Shown: piece by piece, positions 2,011-26,185 of the stretch | How positions within the stretch are numbered: position 1 is the first letter of the stretch | Layout of the letters: the number at the start of each line of letters is the position of its first letter | Origin: Mizuhopecten yessoensis | Lineage: Eukaryota | Assembly (NCBI RefSeq): GCF_002113885.1 | Contig: NW_018407755.1 | Span: 333,343-397,342, forward strand | Length of the DNA stretch: 64,000 nt | Direction of reading: 5' to 3' | Notes under the pieces: generated by a model | The model's input: the letters and a program-made list of their open reading frames with translations, nothing else | Database searches by the model: none | Told to the model about the DNA's origin: nothing | Made by a program: the position numbers and the translations under genes

Positions 2011-4934
2011 TACGTCAGACGTTTTGGTATTATGTATTACACGTGTAGCTCAATAATGGTTCATTTGTTTACATATGACATATGATTTATATATTTATTA
2101 TCTGTCATCAGGCTTTCAAAACTGGATTTTCGAAAAAAATCCGTTTACATTAGTTTCATTATATTGTCTTGATTAAAAAATATTTCGTAACTCTGTCCGT
2201 AAACAACTCCTATGTTACAATCAATATTGTCCTTGTTTGAATTTATGTCTTCGTGTGAGACAGGAAATGGACTTCGATGTTGTCAAGCCTAAATGTTTTT
2301 TTCAGTATAAATTATCACTAGGGAAATAAATACTTTCTGATAAACATTTATGCAGTTCATTTCGTTCAACCCGCAATTTCCTTCCTTTTTTATCTTTTTA
2401 TAATCAGTCATTGATTTACAAAAGAACTCGTTCTCCGAACATTACTGTTAGGGGTTTGCATCATTATTAACGCTGATTTTTATTAACAGACCTTTAACTA
2501 CCTAATAATGCCTTTGACATCTGACGGTCACACTGACAAAAATGAGTTTCAAAAGATGTCAGTTTATGTAGAATAGGGACAAGTTTCATTGTAGCAATAA
2601 AGATTTCATTGGGAAATAGGCTACTTTCTAGTGTGATGTGATAGCCAATGTTTGTGATAATGTTCGTAAATGTGTCTTGTTGTTTTGTTGTTACTACCAT
2701 TGTCATCCAAATAAAGAAATGAAATTACTTGGATTTGACCTAAATTTACACAACGGATATTGTCGATCAAACATAAGACGCTTACCCTTCCGGAACGCAT
2801 GGTCTTATTTTATTATCCCAGTACTTCATTAAGAGTTTCTGTGTATTTTTTTTTATTTGTTCATAGTTTGCCCTTGTTTTAGCGATTATGAGTACGAAAT
2901 ATAGTTTCGGTGACACTCGATAATCTTCGGAGTTTTTGTTCACTCTTTTCTTGATAAATCTAACGCCAACATATTTTGACGACCTTTTACCGACACACGT
3001 GCTTTTATTATTTTTCACTTGACTTATAAACTGTGTAATATTAAGATTAATATAATACTTGGCCTTGTGATATCTCCAAATAACATTAATTTGATGCAAA
3101 TCTTGTAGTATCGGGAAAATTAATTGCAGTCCAGTTTGATATAACAAGCCGCTTGCATATATAAGATTTTACTCCTTTAATTTCAAAAGAGCATCGAATA
3201 CAAAACACCTACGTGATTCCCTGTTTTATTAACATGCATGTAGAAAATAGATTTATCTATATTTTTGCCGGTATCATTTATTTACAATTACTCAAACATT
3301 TTGATTATTGCAAAAATGTATCCCATTTATCATATCATAACCGTTTTCTGACATCAGTGTCAAATTGCATTTGAAAACAAATAGATATCAGTAAAAAAAA
3401 ATCTGTACATTTTCCATCACACTCTTCAGTATATAAACCTGTTGCATTATGCTGTTACTGGAGAATTAAAATAAATGAAATGGATTGCAGTAATCAAGGA
3501 TAACGCTATATGAATAAGTTGATTAAAGGATTTTCAATCATCCAATACCGCGTATATATTAGCCGATTTATTCTAAAGATGTTTTAAATTGCTTGCCGCC
3601 ACGTGTCAACACGACCAAACTTCCATTTTTTCTTACGATAGTTTGCATATATTTGCCAATACCACTTAATAGTCAGTCGAGATTGGCATTTGATAATGCT
3701 GTCGCTAACACACCGTACTATAGAAATTGTGCTTATGATATAAACCTAATTGTTTAGCACTTCCCAACATGCGACTATGACAACAGCCGTAGCAATGCGT
3801 AAAGTAGCTTTTATAATTTTAGAGTTTCGTTTTGAAATGTTATGTGGATCAATATGAAACAAAAGGCGTGTTATAGGATTTAATATATCAAAACACGAAT
3901 CAAAACGATATTAACTAAAAAATGTATAAAATAAAATCAGCTGATAATGAAGATGCTGAAATTAGGCTCTAGAATGCTACAAGTATATTTCTAGAATCTG
4001 TAGAGATCGATAAACTGTGTAGTTATATTTGATAGCTCTCATGGTAATTGTTCAGTTAACAGCAATTAATGTACCTTGGGAAGTTTCTAGTAGGTTAAAC
4101 ATTGGTTTCCTTTGTTATCTAATTGCTGTTCATACAGTAGCAACGTTCCAATTTTTAGCTCAAAACTACACGGTCAGAACTTACATAAAACCTATTGTAC
4201 AAACATAGACCTCACGAAGAGTCGTTATGCTTTATCAAAAACATTAGCTTGTTTTTCAATACATTAGGTTTATCAAAATGTCATAATGATATATGAATGA
4301 AGTCGTGGATGCTTTTGTGACAACCCAAACATATCATGATTATGGATTAGACATTACAATTGAGTGATTTATAATTATAATTGGAGGTTCTAATATACCG
4401 CTTTATTACAACCTAGTTCGTAGGTCGTCTCAAAGCGGTTCACAAATTATCATCCGTGGTTATAGGGCCTTTGCAATCAGCCAACATCTTTCTCAACTCC
4501 CTTGGGAGCATACAGCCGATATCACACAATGCCACATCATTGAAAATGGGTCACGTTTTCCTTCACGAGGACAGTACCTTCTAACTAAAACATCAATTTT
4601 TCTTAAAAGAAGTGGGTATCAACAACAAATTGAATTTAAAGAAACGTCAGATCACTTCGCCATGAGACGATGGCTTTGTAAAATATTTGTTTTTGACCTT
4701 TTAAGTAAGAATATGTTGTTAGACTGTTTTTTATACTTGCCACACTTATATTACGACTTTCAAGTATCATCATACACAAATGTAATCTGCATACGGTAGT
4801 ATAATATCGACCGATTCAAAATATTCGGACTACCGTCAGGGTTTATAATAGCTGACAACATCCACAACAAAGTGTATGTATAAGAGAAGTAGATAAGACA
4901 ACATAAGAACACTGAAACTGTAATTTATACCAGC

Positions 4935-5197: not shown

Positions 5198-5880
5198 ATG
5201 TAAGTTAAGGTCAATCTAAGTAATGTCACGCCATCATAGCTGTAAATATTGTACATTTTATCATACATTGTATCTTGACCATATGTAAGATGAGCTTCAT
5301 GCTCAATAGGTTATCAAGAATAAAGAAAGCCTTTATTATTATTAATATTATTATATATTATTATTATTTGTCGTAGCGACTATTATAGCAATGATCAGTG
5401 ATGAGCATAAAAATACCGACCTTCAAATTACTTATATAAATATATTTCCTAATGAAGTCATGATGGTGACCATAACATTTGTAAACAGTCTTCATTTACC
5501 TGCAGATTTGAATACTTTTTTTGTAAAGATAGAGGTCTAAGGTGGTTGGGGCGGTGGAGGAGGGGGTTGGAAGATCACGTTTGCCTCCTCTGTGTCGCAA
5601 AGACAAAGGCAGAAAGGAAACAATACGATTCCGCAATATATACCATATTTGTCTTACAGCACTTCAATTGATTCATATCGCCCCTTAACCTTACAAGGGG
5701 ACAACAATGGACGAAGACTATTGATCCTGTTTAGTATATGTGACAGTTGTTTTTTCCTTTCTGCGCAAACAATGAACAAGAGGATGAGCATAGCGACAGA
5801 TGCAGCTCTTCATACCACACTTCAGTTTACTTTATATGATATACTAGTTTGGTGTAGTCTATCATTCTCTGCTTTATGGC

Positions 5881-8800
5881 ATGGCTAGTTTATCACGACC
5901 AGGTACGTATCCCAGTTCTTTATCAATTACATTGTATGTTAATTTGTATGATTTTTTAGATATTCTAGTTAACAGATAATTATTGTCTGTATATGCAAGA
6001 AAGCCTTTCTCTAGGTAAGAGACTGTCACGGTGAAATATTATCACAAAAGAATATTTCCCTGAGGATAGGGGTGTATTATCAGAGAACACTCAAGATTTA
6101 CCGACATTCCAACCAAAGGGTTTCAATTACAACATACCTTTTCTTTATCTTAATCCAAGATATTAATTATTATATTTCTTGTCTACCTTACGATCAAAAC
6201 GAAAATAATATATTCATAAAAAGAATAGAACACTATTTTTCTTCTAGCATTTTTCAACACTGTTGCTATAGTGAGTAAGAAAAAAAACGATTCGAAAGAA
6301 ATTTTTCAGCATCGATAATTACAGGGATATATTTGCTTCTTGTGAACTCGAAAACTATGTATCTCATGTGGCTTTTTACTTTTTTCTTTGGTTATTACGT
6401 CAGAATGTAGCCAACTACATTTTTTACTTTTCTATATGTTATTTCCATTGGTGGTAAGCATACCATCATACAATGGGTTACTGTATACTTTATTTATCTA
6501 TATTTTTCCTCTATCAGGAAAAATCTTTTTGATTAATGATATCTTTACTTCTGCAAAAACGGTAACTATAATCTTTTGCCAACGTGAATATGTATCACTT
6601 TAACAAATCATTGGCGAGCAGAAAACCATACCTTGCTCAACGTTAACGTTAAAGTATACATCTACATAGCATAAATATACTATAGTTACACAGCAGATAT
6701 CAATCAATTATGAAAAGTTCTTTTTACACAACCAATAAGATTGTATTTTTGACCAAGTATTAAACAAAGCGTAACTGAATTGAGTCATTTCGGAACATAT
6801 ATAACAACTATTGTACATACGCTTCTGCGAAGCCGAATCGACCTCGATTTTGTGGACACTCGTACACATTTTACACCTTTGAGTGTGCATACGCTTCACT
6901 GGTCATTTGTCTGATGAAGGTGACAGTGTACATATCGTATTAGTCATCGAAACGTCACAGAGAAAATATTATTGGTTGTGTAAAAAGAACTTTTCATAAT
7001 CCGTACTTACCAACCTGAAGAAAATGATTAGAGATATCAATTAAATTATATCAAATATTGGTAAAACAGTTATGAAACAGTATCCCGGGGAATTTTCACT
7101 CATTCAAATTTTCGCCCTTCGCCGTTCAAATCGATATTTGCCAAATGTTAATTTCGCCCATCATAATGAATTACTTTATGTAATATTGTTAATAAATATT
7201 CGCTGTAATGATAAATTCGCCCTTTTTATGGGGAGGAAAAAGGCGAAACTTAACATGCAGCAATGTCACACACAGTTGTATAAATAAATTTACCTAAACT
7301 ATCACAGATATTAGTTCAGTAAGCAATTGATCGGAACAAATGTTATATGAATGCTTGCTATATTTAATCTTACATTGTCTTTTTACAACATGGAATGAAC
7401 GAAGTAGTCAAACGGAAAGTACTGCATTTGATTACAAAGTTCGTTAAGTTACAATTTAAATGTCGTGTTCAAAGGGAATAGTGACCTAATGTTTCTTAAA
7501 AGACTTCATCGGGGAAATGTATTGAAATATTGACATAACTGTGACCACGTCTTGTCCAATGAAAATGCAGACCCTAACAAATTTATAATTATCGATGTCA
7601 TTGTGTGATCATAAACAGTCATAGCCAAATGCATAAATGTATGCATCCCGTAAAACGCATGCACAAGCTGTCTACATATTTGAAGCAATTGGGTGTGGAT
7701 TCCACATGGTTTTACATAGCAATTGACGTGATATTTTACGTCGTAATATTGCTGAAAGCACCAGGTATCACCAGACACTTTAATCCTTCGTGGCAACACT
7801 TGGTTCATTTCATAATATTGCTGAAAGCACCAGGTATCACCAGACACTTCAATCCTTCGTGGCAACACTTGGTTCATTGTCCACACGACACTATCATGCG
7901 TTTTACAAAGCGGCGGCAAAATTGAAAGACGTTGTAAGCGACATATGTTAACCGCTTTGTGTGTCACGGACCACGCACGTGTTTCAGGTTTAAGATAAGG
8001 AAGGTCACTTACGACTATCAGATCCAAACAGTTGCTACTTCTATTGCCTATAGTAGTTTACCTGCCGAATCGGAGGTGGTGTCTTCCTTGTCTTCTAATT
8101 AGGAGACAATGGAGAAATCAAGAATATACCTGTTGCAGGCGGTGGTCTCCCCAGTCCTCTGTCCTCATTTGACCCTGGCGGTTGCGAGGACGTTGGACCC
8201 AAAACAAACAAACAAACACGTTTGTGAAATACATTGATAAATAAGAAAAACAGAAATAAATTTGCCAAGACAATTTCTTACATTCCATTTCTAATTCTAA
8301 TTAGTGTATCGCATCTTTGTGTCAAATGAATGCAGATTATGTTGTTTTAAAGACGTACATTGTGTTAGATGATTGAACACATTGGCAAAAGTACCGGGAA
8401 TTAAATTATCAAAACAGAATTCAATTATTATTATTATACCAATACAACTACCAATTGAAAATTCACCATATAGCTAATGATTCAGGCATGAAAATAAAAA
8501 TGTTAAAATATAAGATCACTCTTTATACAAAAGGGAACTTATGAGAAATCTGAGAGTACAGTCCAGAAAATAATTATCCCAAATATATTTTCATATCAAC
8601 AATTTCTTCGAAATAGACACAATAATGTCATGATGCAGTGTACATTATTTTTTTATTTATTTTTTTATTTCTGCGTAGTTTAATCACTAGTGTTTAAAAT
8701 AAAGATCTACCACAAAGGTTGCCATGTGTGTAAAACGACTCTTCGTTAGATATTTTATAAAAAAAGAAAATCTTTAACCATACTTTCAAAAATATTGTTT

Positions 8801-11800
8801 TTTTTATTTCGCTTTGCTTTGTTAATACGTGTTTTGTTAATTCACATTAAATCCAATCTTTTGCACACAAAAAAAGACTCTGCAGAGCGAACTGATTTTT
8901 ATATTTGTATTTCTTGTCTTGTTGTGTCTTGCTTTTAAATGTGTTGATTTCATGTTAAGGATCCCTGTAACCACCGCTGGAAAAACAAAAAAAGAACTCC
9001 ACTGTAGTGTTCGTGCAAACTATAACGCCCCTTTTTAATTTCGTTTTGAATATTGTTCCGTGTTCAAAACACGAAAGAACATGAAAGCTGTGACGGAGAG
9101 AGAAACACTTGTATCAGTGAGCAATTTGTATTCATTCATTAGTACTCAACACGAACTTGTATCAAAGTACATGAAGTGAACCAATATTACTATAAAACAA
9201 GTAATTTCGGTACCTCAAGCGAACCGTAGTCATAAAAATAATAACTGGGGCGGGGGCTGTTTACTACTTAGCTCCGTTGGTTAGAGTGATAGTTCGAGAC
9301 TGAGATCCATGATTTGAATCCCTATCTGTTTCGTTGCAAATTTTTGCACACAGAATGACAATGTCTTTATTTATATATTGAGTTTTTTTTATTCCGCTTT
9401 CATTTTTTTCATAACATTTCTTCTCAACGTAAGCATGACTCATTTAACAAAGCAATAATTATGCCGTTAAATCACATCTTCTTTTTACCACTTGAAGGCA
9501 TTGGTTCGGGATCCTTAAAATTTGACAAATAGATATATTCATTCATCAATAATATAAAATCCTATTAATTACGTTTATCTTCATTACAGGATGGAGATTA
9601 TTGCATGTCGTGTTCTGCAGTCTCATGACTGTTAGTATAATATCTGTAATAGGGTTTATCGTGACATCACAAATGACATTAAAATACAATGTCAAGATGC
9701 CTGACATCAACCTGTTTCGATACGTCGTTGATACAAAGAAGGATGAGTTGTCTTCGAGTCAACTTGAAGGGACGAGCACGATCACCATAGAGACGAAAAA
9801 TGTCACCTCTACGACAAAATCAACTATTCGGAGATTTCAGTCTCAAATGGATGCAGGTTTGGTATTTTGGTATTAGGAGCTTAATAATGTTAAGTGTTTG
9901 TTTCGAAGTAACATTAATATCCATGAGAAAGACTCGAATTTTTAAATATCTCGCTTATCTTGAAGCCAGTTTGTCATGGCTTCAACGGCTTCAACAAAAA
10001 GAGTTTCGATTGCTTTTAGTTAAATGTTTCATGTTTCAGGTATGAATGAATATCAACGTTTTTTTTCAAAACGTTTGCTTACGTTGTCTTTGCAGAACTA
10101 ATGTTTATATTTATTTTTAAAAAAATAGCAATATCAAGAGACATTCGTTAATTTTGATTGTTTAATTGTAGTTGGACGTTAAGATATAACCATTATTTGT
10201 CTACTAAACTTAATATTGAGATATAAGTGGCTACCAGTATAGTGTATTAATAGATCTACCTGTATATGTTATGTTCTTTGTAGATGATGACGATGTTGCT
10301 AGTCGTTTGAAGAAGGAAGTACGTGTGTTGTGCTGGATAATGACATGCCCTGCAAATCTTAAGTATAAGACTGTTTCCGTAAAACGCACGTGGGCCACGC
10401 GATGTAACGTGGTTGTATACATCAGCTCAACTACGGACACCAGCTTCCCGACCGTGGGGCTCAACGTCTCCGAGGGACGGGATCATCTTACGGAAAAAAG
10501 TATGCAAGCGTTTAAGTACGTGTACGACAAACATTTCAATGACGCTGATTGGTTCTTAAAAGCTGATGACGACACTTACGTTATACTAGAAAACCTTCGT
10601 TATTTACTGAAGTCACATTCGCATGAGGAACCTGTTTACTTCGGACATCATTTCAGGGCTCAAGTAAAGCAGGGTTACCACAGTGGAGGGGCGGGGTACG
10701 TCTTGAGTAAAGAAGCCCTACGAAGGCTGGCTCTGAAAGGAAACGATACGAATTTGTGCCATAAATCTGGTCTAGACGAAGACGTAGAGATTGGTCGATG
10801 TATGGAGAATATTGGAGTCAAAATTGGAAACTCAACGGACGCCTTAGGGCGAACCCGGTTCCATTGCTTCTATCCGTCAATGCATTTATCCGGATTATAC
10901 CCTTCCTGGTATTCCCGATACGACACACATGGAGGAAAAAAGAAGGTGGGTATGTCGATAAAAACATTTCAGTTCTTTATGTGATGAATGTTATGTTAAA
11001 TGTTAGCGGATTGATGTAATCATAAGCAGCAGATGTGCACAAGTCATAAGCAGCCAGAAACGTAGAAAACCTAAATTAATTCACAAATATGTATACATAG
11101 ATGCTATTTCATTTTTCCTGATGAACTCTATATATTTCATGAGTATGACGGAATACTGATATTTTTCACGAGTGAGAAGTACGAATTAATATCTCTATAT
11201 TCTGCCATAAAAGTGAAATATATATGGTATTCAGCGGAAAAAACTATTGATTCTTCCATTTATTACATTCTTTAAAGTACAAAAAAGTGCGGGATTAAGT
11301 AGGGCAATATATGACGTCAAGTTATAATGACGTCACGCTTTACAACAAGGCTTTGTGCCATTTTGAATGGGCTGCTCAAAACAATTATATCGTTTTCTGT
11401 CCTTGTTTCGGTAGGATTTGCCCACAAAAAATATCAATTACGTAAGTATGTTAATAACTTTGTGTATGTACCAAAGACGTATAACAATAAGCACTTATTC
11501 CACCGTCGTTTATCTGTAATTGAAAAGAAAATTTGCGACATGAAATAGACAATACCATTTTGATTGGTCAATATTAAATCGATACTGGACCTTATATCGT
11601 TACATATGAAAATAAAAACATTTCGTATTTCTATTTTTTCAAGTTTTTATCATCCTATTTATTTTTTGATATTTCACTAGCACATGTGTTATAAATAGTC
11701 ATTGAACTGATTTTTTTTAATTTTCATGCTGGTATGCACGTTAATCGGTTACATCCATATTGAACATGAAGCCCGCTATTTATAGTCCATATATTTACAT

Positions 11801-14032
11801 TTTAACAATAGAACAGTTGTTTCATTTCATTTATTTGTTCTCAAAGAATTTATCTATTTACTGCGTTTGTATATGCGTCGTCCTATTTAACTAAAATTGG
11901 CGCCAATAATCAACCGTAGTCATGTGAGCGTGTGACGCATGGACATTTTCCGTTTTATTCGAAGCAAAGCGACAAGACTCTCATTAAACATGGTTAATCA
12001 ATGACGTCATATGTAAACCACGTGTTACGTCACGAGAGTGTTTGCTTTCATACTCAAATGAAATGCATTTCTGCTAGGAATGTTAATATTGTGGGTTGCA
12101 GCGCAAAATTTGATGTAAATATACAACTATAAATCTAATACAAATTATACACATGTGTAACAGCTGTGTAATCAAGAAATTACCTACAATGTACCGAGAG
12201 AGATCAAGAAAAAATAGTGAAAATACTCACTAAAATACAAAAACAAAAATTACCTATTTCAAAAAAAACATTTTTTAATTTGTCCGTGCATAAAAAAAAC
12301 ACATATAAGTAAAAATATTATTGCAATAAATCGCCATTTTGTCTATCTACCATCCATGCTTATATTATGTAAACATAACACAGAAACAAAATTCTTATTC
12401 ATATAATAGTCAATTCACAATAAAATATACTTTTTTGATATCATTCGAAATGTATATACATGTATATACAGATATGGTCATCGAAGTAATTTCAGTGGTA
12501 AATTCCGGTACGTATAACTTAAAATTGGTTAATGGGCCAAGGAAGTGATTCCAACAGTGTAGACAATAGGAGGTTATCAAACTTTCGGAGCAATCAACCC
12601 TTTATCGAGACACCGTGTTTTTCTTTGTCTCGATAATTGAGCGGATTGCTCCGAAAATTGTACAACCTCATATTGTCTACACTGTATGATATTTGCTAAA
12701 TCTTCGGAGCAATCCGTTCGATTATCGAGACACCGTATTTTTCTTTGTCTCGATAATGGAGCACATATATCCAAATAGTTGGCAAACTCATACTTGCCTA
12801 TATATATATGTGTGTGTCACTAGGAGGTAGTGATCGACTTTGTTGCTCATTGAAAAAGAAAACTTACTGAAATTAAGATACACTGTAGATATCCCAAAAT
12901 AATAGTCATCAATGTATTTCACCTATCTCAATTCTAAATTAATAAGAAGGAACTAAAGTTACATACACTGTCTAAGCATTTATTAGGAAATTTAAATATT
13001 CGAGGCAACTTATTAGGGGTGCTCTGCAGCGTCCAAGTTTTCCTTTGGTGTTCTCTGCTAAGCAGACATAGTAATCTTAATTACTATTGATGATGTCGAA
13101 CACTTAATTAAGGAATGCCACATCCGTTTCAGGAAAGGGATGCAATACTGGAAACTGCTGTTGATATTTTAAATGTATACTATTATCTCATTTTCTCATA
13201 TAAATGAGTGACAAAGAGCGAAGTGAAGTATTTCTGGCACTATAAGCTTATCACATATTCAGTGGGCAGAAATGATGAAGTCTATCGCAAAATTGATCCC
13301 GAAAATGTACTCAGTAATGCATGAACTTACAAAATAACTGCTAAAAAATAGCAGTTCAAGATCAGAAAATAAAGAAGCCATATTTTCACATAATTTTATC
13401 AAATGTTCCATGTAAAAAAATAATTATATGATGTAAAGGTTCAATTCTTACAATTCCATACAAATGGGTTTATATCAAATATCAATTAGTATGTATGTAA
13501 TGCACCAGATAGTCACAATTAGCGATATGAATGTATGACACTGATTTCTAATTAATGATTTACTATTTCTAAAACTTAATTTTAAAATCAAATCACATAA
13601 ACCATTATGTAATTAATGCAATGTTGCATTAGAGTTATCAAGTTAAAAACATGTATTCAAATTAAATTCATAAGAACATGCCTCCTACAGGTTGTCCAGG
13701 GATCGTTTTTGAATAGATATACATGCCAAATCAATGCATCATATGTTGGTTCAAATGCAGATTTCTATCAATGCCTAATGCGTTATCAGTGATTTTTTGT
13801 TAATGGTGATGAATGCAACAGCAATATATAACATGCTTATTTAAATGCGAATTGCTATTGATGTTAGATGTATTACCAGTGATCTTTTGTTTTGTTTCAG
13901 GGACGTGAGAGTATCAGTGAACACGCCATTTCCTTTCATTATATCACACCCACGGAGATGTATTATCTGGATTTTTTAATTTATCACATACTGCCGTATG
14001 GTATATCTTCCGTTGACAAGCATCTCAACTAA
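5881..14032 (+). CDS. C1GALT1: core 1 beta-1,3-galactosyltransferase (T-synthase)-like, GT31; 4 coding exons, ~360 aa
   Basis: Exons 5881..5902 (MASLSRP, least certain), 9590..9856 (type II TM anchor + stem), 10284..10945 and 13901..14032 (TAA). All introns are GT-AG with matching phases; total 1083 nt. Motifs: VRVLCWIMT, TWATRCN, WFLKADDDTY (DxD), SGGAGYVLSKEAL, EDVEIGRC, AISFHY. Confidence 0.9.
6906..6961 (+). ncRNA. minimal type I hammerhead ribozyme motif (Penelope-like terminal-repeat type)
   Basis: tttgt-CTGATGA-a-ggtgac..gtcatc-GAAA-CG-TC/acaga: intact core, 5-bp stem I, 6-bp stem II, predicted cleavage after C6956. Confidence 0.75.
7078..7250. mobile_element. MITE family with ATACCGGGAAA(T)TTTCGCC-type ends (degenerate copy)
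   Basis: Shares internal ttcgccc repeats and ends with the copies at 18792..19150, 42503..42690 and 43120..43281. Confidence 0.6.
7744..7878. repeat. 69-bp tandem duplication
   Basis: taatattgctgaaagcaccaggtatcaccagacactt..ttggttcatt at 7744 and 7813. Confidence 0.9.
8060..8218 (+). mobile_element. SINE 3' portion with (AAAC)n tail
   Basis: Ends gaccctggcggttgcgaggacgttgg followed by an aaac repeat; similar 3' ends at ~42910 and ~63810. Confidence 0.5.
12584..12763. repeat. 120-bp-period imperfect direct repeat
   Basis: ttcggagcaatc..ttatcgagacaccgt..ttttctttgtctcgataat at 12584 and 12704. Confidence 0.8.

Positions 14033-16702: not shown

Positions 16703-26185
<9,483 letters not shown>

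What the first reader, a model, noticed from the sequence alone, without database searches (positions are those of the whole stretch)
6906..6961. Intact hammerhead ribozyme on the sense strand of C1GALT1 intron 1
Seen: the full core CUGAUGA..GAAA..GUC with a 5-bp stem I, a 6-bp stem II, an extra A after A9 and a minimal stem III, inside intron 5903..9589 and oriented like the gene. Known: such minimal type I hammerheads typify Penelope-like terminal repeats and retrozymes, and often need dimerisation to cleave. Inference: it could cut the nascent pre-mRNA, or simply be a relic.
Basis: partly seen in the sequence, partly recalled or inferred. Interest (0 to 1): 0.7.

Follow-up and report, generated by a model that had tools for sequence, protein, structure and literature searches.

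The report
Penelope transposon relic carrying hammerhead motif
A hammerhead self-cutting RNA motif does sit in the predicted first intron of this scallop glycosyltransferase gene, but it is one of at least 749 copies scattered by a decayed Penelope-like jumping gene and is likely an inactive passenger rather than a regulator of the gene.

Summary
The motif is real: intact core, 6-bp stem II, extra A after A9, GUC at 6954-6956; one comparable hit in 300 shuffled windows. It has no stem III that can close in one molecule (loop-less ACGU palindrome), so it is a minimal type I hammerhead. It lies in a 325-bp insertion (6707-7031): a solo terminal repeat of a Penelope/Poseidon-like retroelement with an inverted arm, a 31-nt tail and a 12-bp target-site duplication. 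At least 749 intact cores of this pattern occur genome-wide; longer sisters encode RT plus GIY-YIG and one carries the motif in both terminal repeats. The 5-bp stem I is a rare variant (14 of 895 copies). The intron is supported by a public gene model and a paralogue, but 7 RNA runs gave no reads on exons 1-2. There is no partner copy in the window, no intact family ORF was found, the core decays like its flanks, and 0 of 30 copies begin at the cut site. Verdict: ordinary relic of a known kind; host pre-mRNA cleavage untested and unlikely. The scan reported the same kind of relic elsewhere in this genome (e1-9880437).

The parts
5881..5902 (+). Predicted first coding exon (22 nt, MASLSRP + phase-1 G) of a C1GALT1-like glycosyltransferase gene
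   Evidence: Matches the N-terminus of public protein P0001; strong donor; same exon length and phase in paralogue P0002; no RNA reads
5903..9589 (+). Predicted intron 1, host of the insertion
   Evidence: GT..AG ends; P0001 joins the two exons; splice junction not seen in reads
6695..6706 (+). Left target-site duplication
   Evidence: 11 of 12 identical to 7032-7043; 13 of 20000 random intron pairs reach this within +-3 registers
6707..6738 (-). Inverted 5'-truncated arm (reverse complement of 6969-7000; weak extension to 6753/6954)
   Evidence: Self-BLAST; 32-bp helix in the fold; same arm in front of full-length sister L131
6750..7031 (+). Solo pseudo-LTR of a Penelope/Poseidon-like retroelement
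   Evidence: About 90% identical to dispersed copies; equals both direct terminal repeats of L131; differs from the column majority at 18 of 286 positions
6751..6774 (+). Last codons of the element's GIY-YIG endonuclease ORF (DQVLNKA*)
   Evidence: sister copies continue upstream into ...EAIWIRR..LNRDEG..LSHIYDQVL
6906..6961 (+). Minimal type I hammerhead motif; core 6911-6917 and 6949-6956, stem II 6919-6924/6943-6948, loop-less ACGU palindrome 6952-6955, predicted cut 6956/6957
7001..7031 (+). 31-nt tail present at the sense end only; holds the element's likely ORF start codon (ATG 7024-7026)
   Evidence: Inverted arm stops at 7000; in L135 this ATG opens the frame that aligns to RT-EN protein P0121
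7032..7043 (+). Right target-site duplication (first bases overlap the family's own end by microhomology)
9590..9856 (+). Exon 2 of the C1GALT1-like gene (transmembrane segment and stem)
   Evidence: tblastn of P0001
10284..10945 (+). Exon 3 (catalytic domain; Pfam Fringe E 1.6e-18, Galactosyl_T E 7.7e-9)
13901..14032 (+). Last coding exon (start inferred from P0001 length)

Best explanation
The motif is the minimal hammerhead of a Penelope-like retroelement's terminal repeat, left in the predicted first intron as a solo, 5'-truncated insertion, and it is likely an inactive passenger. [quoted passage not shown] Inferred: the element's endonuclease nicked AT-rich intron DNA, reverse transcription began just inside the ORF start (7031, and 7000 for the arm) on an uncleaved RNA, read through the hammerhead and stopped near 6750. 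Inferred: in the parent element two same-strand hammerheads about 2.2 kb apart could form a shared stem III or be folded by the element's protein; here neither a partner nor an intact family ORF is found, so the pre-mRNA, when made, would be spliced uncut or cut too rarely to matter, and the copy decays neutrally.
For: Family: 2781 first-look candidates, 40 scored, best 90-94% identical; 749 intact-core pattern matches against 1 in the reversed control; 147 exact copies of the commonest 46-mer. Coding sisters: RVT_1 E 1.2e-6 and GIY-YIG E 0.004-0.007, below Pfam cut-offs; 44-77% identical relatives, many with RT domains; L131 = inverted arm, pLTR with hammerhead, ORF aligning to P0121 residues 1-797 with a gap, second pLTR with hammerhead. 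Inverted upstream copy in 16 of 30 and 8 of 8 loci. TSD 11/12. No second copy in the window; the neighbour 15 kb upstream is antisense or lacks the 3' half. In 39 copies picked by ORF only, core substitution 21/468 vs flanks 277/4878, p=0.34; 0 compensatory changes and 14 broken cells in stem II. This copy: 2 of 56 differences inside the motif vs 16 of 230 outside, p=0.54. Stem I pair probability 0.02-0.30; the MFE pairs the core with the cut site, -14.3 vs -7.8 kcal/mol for the hammerhead stems. 0 of 30 copies picked downstream of the cut begin within 3 nt of it; 26 cross it. No family match of 60% identity or more has an open frame over 313 aa. Literature: a min-HHR monomer showed no cleavage and dimers low cleavage (PMC4209133); the Anolis Poseidon HHR did not cleave without its protein and was not needed for insertion in vitro (PMC11167929).
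Against: All core positions are intact and G6960 strengthens stem I relative to the family. Pooling both copy sets, the core is slightly more conserved than flanks (29/864 vs 461/9575, p=0.053), though one set was chosen by likeness to this copy. Ten distant PLE-like matches (28-36% identity) have open frames of 705-867 aa, so some PLE protein may exist in the cell; only 150 of 263 candidates were scored and a fragmented assembly can hide an intact family copy. Family RNA is present in all 7 RNA runs, so partners in trans exist. No cleavage assay was possible.
Confidence: 0.88

Rival explanations
1. Conditional host cleavage: when the gene is transcribed, this copy is cut after C6956 by pairing with a family RNA in trans or by binding of a Penelope protein to its retained tail, lowering or delaying mRNA production.
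For: Intact core, sense orientation, stronger stem I; tail retained; family RNA in 7 of 7 RNA runs; protein-assisted cleavage shown for the Anolis Poseidon HHR (PMC11167929).
Against: No intact ORF of this family found; two-copy cofolding prefers a non-hammerhead duplex (-33.0 kcal/mol) and the palindrome duplex is only -3.1; zero depth on exons 1-2 in 7 RNA runs; no sign of selection on this copy; absent from the introns of two paralogues examined whole. From recall, a cut inside an intron often leaves splicing intact.
Confidence: 0.07
2. Monomer of a non-LTR retrozyme that amplifies through tandem copies and circular RNA.
For: Small (about 300 bp), non-coding at this locus, type I hammerhead; retrozymes are proposed to derive from PLE pLTRs (10.64898/2026.07.22.740005).
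Against: Only 1 of 92 hammerhead-bearing loci held a same-strand pair, 2.2 kb apart around an ORF; 28 held opposite-strand pairs; 5' ends are variable and run into coding sequence.
Confidence: 0.03
3. Chance match to the hammerhead consensus.
For: No Rfam hit; fold z-score -0.02; no compensatory changes within the family.
Against: 1 hit in 300 shuffles; sits in a PLE terminal repeat where such motifs are reported; shows the four features that paper lists or describes; the Anolis element printed in PMC11167929 has the same GAAACGUC junction.
Confidence: 0.01

Closest known systems
[quoted passage not shown]
   Same: Full core, long helix II closed by G10.1-C11.1, extra base after A9, palindromic 15.2-16.2 with no loop, short helix I, mostly single dispersed copies from truncated elements, some opposite-strand pairs.
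   Different: A scallop family not named in what I read; 18-nt loop II; family helix I carries a U.U mismatch that this copy turns into a U.G pair.
Poseidon element of Anolis carolinensis, PAc (PMC11167929; passages and section 3 part 2 read)
   Same: RT + C-terminal GIY-YIG, 30-40 nt tail, hammerhead with the GAAACGUC junction in the pLTR, AT-rich target, copies made from uncleaved RNA.
   Different: In PAc the ORF starts inside stem II; here the likely start codon lies 68 nt downstream of the cut. No intact copy of this family was found.
Penelope/Poseidon clade of EN+ PLEs (Craig et al. 2021, PMC8557442; passages read)
   Same: CCHH motif, no CX2-5CxxC linker, 5' truncation, inverted 5' copy, tail at one end, hammerhead in the pLTR.
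   Different: Clade assigned by motifs only; no tree built.
Non-LTR retrozymes (10.64898/2026.07.22.740005, part 1 of 5 and passages read; PMC7229834, listing only)
   Same: Type I hammerhead in a short repeat; about 42-44% of Xenopus copies lie in introns, so an intronic site is common.
   Different: Not tandem; the family encodes its own RT-EN.
Conserved intronic ribozymes of host genes (amniote HH9/HH10, mammalian CPEB3; recalled, CPEB3 also in the listing)
   Same: Sense-strand self-cleaving motif in an intron.
   Different: Those are single-copy, conserved across species and active as monomers (recalled); this is one of hundreds of young copies without a closable stem III.

Membership tests
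min-HHR of metazoan PLEs | Conserved core CUGANGA / GAAA / UH | tested here: met
min-HHR of metazoan PLEs | Long helix II with G10.1-C11.1 and an unpaired base after A9 | tested here: met
   6 bp, pair probability above 0.95; A6918
min-HHR of metazoan PLEs | Palindromic 15.2-16.2, no helix III loop | tested here: met
   ACGU 6952-6955
min-HHR of metazoan PLEs | Short helix I (4-5 bp) | tested here: met
   5 bp with one wobble here; 3 bp + U.U + 1 bp in 881 of 895 counted copies
min-HHR of metazoan PLEs | Located in the pLTRs of a PLE | tested here: met
   Both direct repeats of L131
min-HHR of metazoan PLEs | Covariation supporting the helices | tested here: inconclusive
   0 compensatory changes among 72 copies of one young family; the shorter-spacer search returned almost only deletion variants of the same family
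min-HHR of metazoan PLEs | Self-cleavage as dimer or with protein help | not testable with these tools
   Needs an in vitro assay
Penelope/Poseidon EN+ PLE | One ORF with RT and C-terminal GIY-YIG | tested here: met
   In sister copies: (Pfam scores below cut-off); this copy keeps only the last codons and the start codon
Penelope/Poseidon EN+ PLE | CCHH motif present, CX2-5CxxC linker absent | tested here: met
   By inspection of translations against the definition
Penelope/Poseidon EN+ PLE | Direct pLTRs, inverted 5'-truncated copy, 30-40 bp tail at one end | tested here: met
   definition
Penelope/Poseidon EN+ PLE | RT phylogeny places it in the clade | not tested
   No named reference set at hand; PDB search gave one weak RT hit (E 0.59)
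Non-LTR retrozyme | Tandem units each with a hammerhead | tested here: not met
   Solo in the window; 1 of 92 loci with a same-strand pair
Non-LTR retrozyme | Accumulates as circular RNA | not testable with these tools
   A junction at the cut site is invisible for a solo copy; not seen
Rfam hammerhead families | Gathering score | tested here: not met
Domesticated intronic ribozyme | Conserved at the same intron site and under selection | tested here: inconclusive
   Absent from two paralogue introns covered whole; no excess conservation; orthologous loci of other species not available

The most novel reading that the evidence does not exclude
Orphan Penelope hammerheads in sense orientation in introns are cut when a Penelope protein binds their retained tail or a family RNA pairs in trans, coupling transposon activity to cleavage of host pre-mRNAs; this copy, with a mutation that strengthens stem I, would be a direct test case.
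Probability: 0.05. Interest if true: 0.65.

Novelty: new member of a known kind. Interest (0 to 1): 0.15.

Why it matters
As a relic it matters little: it is one more of hundreds, and a second, unrelated Penelope-like family leaves another hammerhead 11 kb away in the same window. Its modest value is as material for the open question of what PLE hammerheads do: in this family 0 of 30 sampled copies begin at the cut site, a genomic echo of the in vitro report that uncleaved RNA is the template. If trans or protein-assisted cleavage of host introns were real, it would tie retroelement activity to host gene output at hundreds of loci.

Tried and rejected
Rfam: no hammerhead match; taken as a limit of the models for a loop-less stem III, not as absence. 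Idea that the inverted arm sequesters the cut site: rejected, the stable helix covers 6969-7000 only and stem I probability is not lowered by it. Run search: no RNA holder listed; not used as evidence. Read ends at 6956/6957: none listed, but fragmented libraries cannot show them. Empty-site test with DNA contigs of run X1: depth 0-1 over 5400-6600 against about 11 from 7500 on, no bridging contig; the tool warns that a hole proves nothing, so polymorphism is unresolved. Summed contig depth over the element was not used as a copy number. Cross-family covariation search: 67 matches, nearly all deletion variants of the same family. PDB search: uninformative. Paper search 'hammerhead ribozyme' + 'Penelope' + 'scallop' gave 0 papers; searches listed no paper on this family by title or abstract start; supplements of PMC4209133 and PMC8557442 were not read and may list mollusc elements. 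Look-up of earlier findings by sequence returned nothing. First exon of the L064 paralogue was not found in the 10 kb fetched, so that intron is not counted as covered.

Full report
Observation. The motif is at the stated place: core 6911-6917, extra A6918, stem II 6919-6924/6943-6948, GAAA 6949-6952, then C, G, U, C, and stem I 6906-6910/6957-6961. A descriptor scan found it as the only + strand hit in the window; 300 dinucleotide shuffles gave one hit in all. Rfam has no match and the stretch folds no better than shuffles (z -0.02). C15.2 and G16.2 are adjacent, so stem III cannot close in one molecule; the four bases ACGU form a palindrome that can pair only between two copies. This is the minimal hammerhead of Cervera and De la Pena (PMC4209133, parts 1-2 of 4 read).

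The motif belongs to a repeat. A search of the own genome with 6780-7030 gave 2781 candidates; the 40 scored gave copies 90-94% identical. Homology spans about 6750-7035. A core pattern matches 749 times against 1 for the reversed control; the commonest 46-mer occurs exactly 147 times. At 6960, 28 of 29 aligned sisters have T, and genome-wide 881 copies have T and 14 have G: the 5-bp stem I is a rare variant of a family helix with a U.U mismatch.

The repeat is a Penelope-like element. Longer copies continue upstream into a GIY-YIG C-terminus and an RT (Pfam RVT_1 E 1.2e-6 and GIY-YIG E 0.004-0.007 in 4 of 6 fragments, all below cut-off; 35 longer relatives at E<=1e-40). Of 8 loci fetched for their 5' part, L131 shows the whole plan: inverted arm, direct terminal repeat with hammerhead, ORF, second terminal repeat with hammerhead 2.17 kb downstream. 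In L135 the ATG that corresponds to 7024-7026 opens the ORF. The translations show the CCHH motif and no CX2-5CxxC linker, which by the definition in PMC8557442 (passages read) points to Penelope/Poseidon; no tree was built.

Anatomy of this copy. 6695-6706 and 7032-7043 match at 11 of 12 bases, reached by 13 of 20000 random pairs; 12 of 29 copies with a found end, this one included, had a match of 12 or more bases upstream, most next to the mapped 5' boundary (no separate control for that count). Inside lie a 32-bp inverted arm (6707-6738 = reverse complement of 6969-7000), a solo terminal repeat from 6750, and a 31-nt tail at the sense end only. Opposite-strand partial copies occur in 16 of 30 and 8 of 8 loci. 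These are the insertion hallmarks described.

Host gene. The closest paralogue has a 22-nt phase-1 first exon too, and of two phase-1 candidates upstream this one has the better donor. So the intron is well supported as a model. The gene is one of 15 loci at E<1e-50 among 28 matches. In 7 RNA runs, 18-26% of each read, exons 1 and 2 had zero depth and no junction was listed; the few exon 3 reads carry other letters and look like paralogues. Reads on the motif come from other copies: 25 of 25 at 6960 in X10 and X15 have T. Transcription of this site is therefore not shown, nor excluded. The element is absent from the two paralogue introns covered whole.

Is it active or selected? In 39 copies chosen by ORF sequence alone the core is intact in 25; core substitution 4.5% vs 5.7% in flanks (p=0.34), with no compensatory change in stem II. 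Pooled with 37 copies chosen by likeness to this one, p=0.053, a weak hint the other way. This copy differs from the majority at 2 of 56 motif and 16 of 230 other positions (p=0.54). Folding gives stem II above 0.95 but stem I 0.02-0.30, with an MFE that pairs the core to the cut site; two copies cofold as a non-hammerhead duplex. No second copy lies in the window. Among 142 matches (150 of 263 candidates scored) none of 60% identity or more has an open frame above 313 aa, while ten distant ones have 705-867 aa. Of the first 30 of 696 matches to a pattern downstream of the cut, 0 begin within 3 nt of it, 26 cross it and 4 stop short (crude aligner, small sample).

Mechanism. Shown: a solo terminal repeat with duplication, arm and tail. 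Inferred: target-primed reverse transcription of an uncleaved element RNA into AT-rich intron DNA, starting just inside the ORF. This fits PMC11167929 (passages and section 3 part 2 read), where the Poseidon hammerhead cleaved only with its protein, was dispensable for insertion in vitro, and no reads ended at the cut. A min-HHR monomer showed no cleavage and dimers little. Without partner or intact family protein this copy most likely does nothing (0.88). Rivals: conditional trans or protein-assisted cleavage of the pre-mRNA (0.07), retrozyme monomer (0.03), chance (0.01).

Novelty. New member of a known kind. A search for hammerhead ribozyme + Penelope + scallop found 0 papers; searches showed none on this family; unread supplements may list mollusc elements. 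Intronic position is common: 42-44% of Xenopus retrozyme copies are intronic (10.64898/2026.07.22.740005, passages). An earlier, unreviewed note of this scan (e1-9880437) reached the same verdict for another locus of this genome; I looked it up after forming my reading and did not check it. A second Penelope-like family leaves another hammerhead at 17638-17594 in this same window, which underlines how ordinary such motifs are here. Interest 0.15.

Noticed in passing
window 17638-17594 (- strand), in a repeat spanning about 17813-17512: A second hammerhead-like motif (CUGAAGA core, 5-bp stem II, short stem III, UA cut site) in an unrelated dispersed family (989 candidates, 40 scored, about 90% identical). 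8 of 10 loci show the motif; sisters encode a GIY-YIG domain preceded by a CX2-5CxxC linker, so Neptune- or Nematis-like, with inverted copies. It may lie on the sense strand of the nearby GH9 gene; not checked.
   Followed up: partly
window 18905-19408 (- strand): Exon of a glycosyl hydrolase family 9 (cellulase-type) gene, Pfam E 5.6e-18.
   Followed up: no
window 6888-6930: All 7 RNA runs show reads that go back from 6930 to 6888 (up to 143 reads in X10), absent from X1 contigs; not at the cut site; probably an expressed copy elsewhere with an internal duplication.
   Followed up: no
window 5400-6600: DNA contigs of run X1 leave a hole over exon 1 and the start of the intron (depth 0-1 against about 11); filter, divergent haplotype or deletion cannot be told apart.
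   Followed up: no
window 7003-7011 (- strand): The tail reads as a near-consensus splice donor on the antisense strand; antisense insertions of this family could supply cryptic donors.
   Followed up: no
window about 6732-6747 and loci L003, L009, L010, L011, L017: Several solo copies share a 5' end within about 15 nt, possibly the element's transcript start inside the ORF end.
   Followed up: no
L065:1638-2076: A decayed second copy of the family about 15 kb upstream of the finding, mainly on the - strand.
   Followed up: partly
P0138: A Ylistrum balloti gene model joins a 77% identical piece of this endonuclease to a PF00386 domain: the family has close relatives in another scallop; the fusion may be an annotation artefact.
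   Followed up: no
window 7741-7878: 69-bp tandem duplication, 97% identical.
   Followed up: no
window 4370-4520, 5240-5310, 11720-12320: Other repeats that attract RNA reads from elsewhere in the genome.
   Followed up: no
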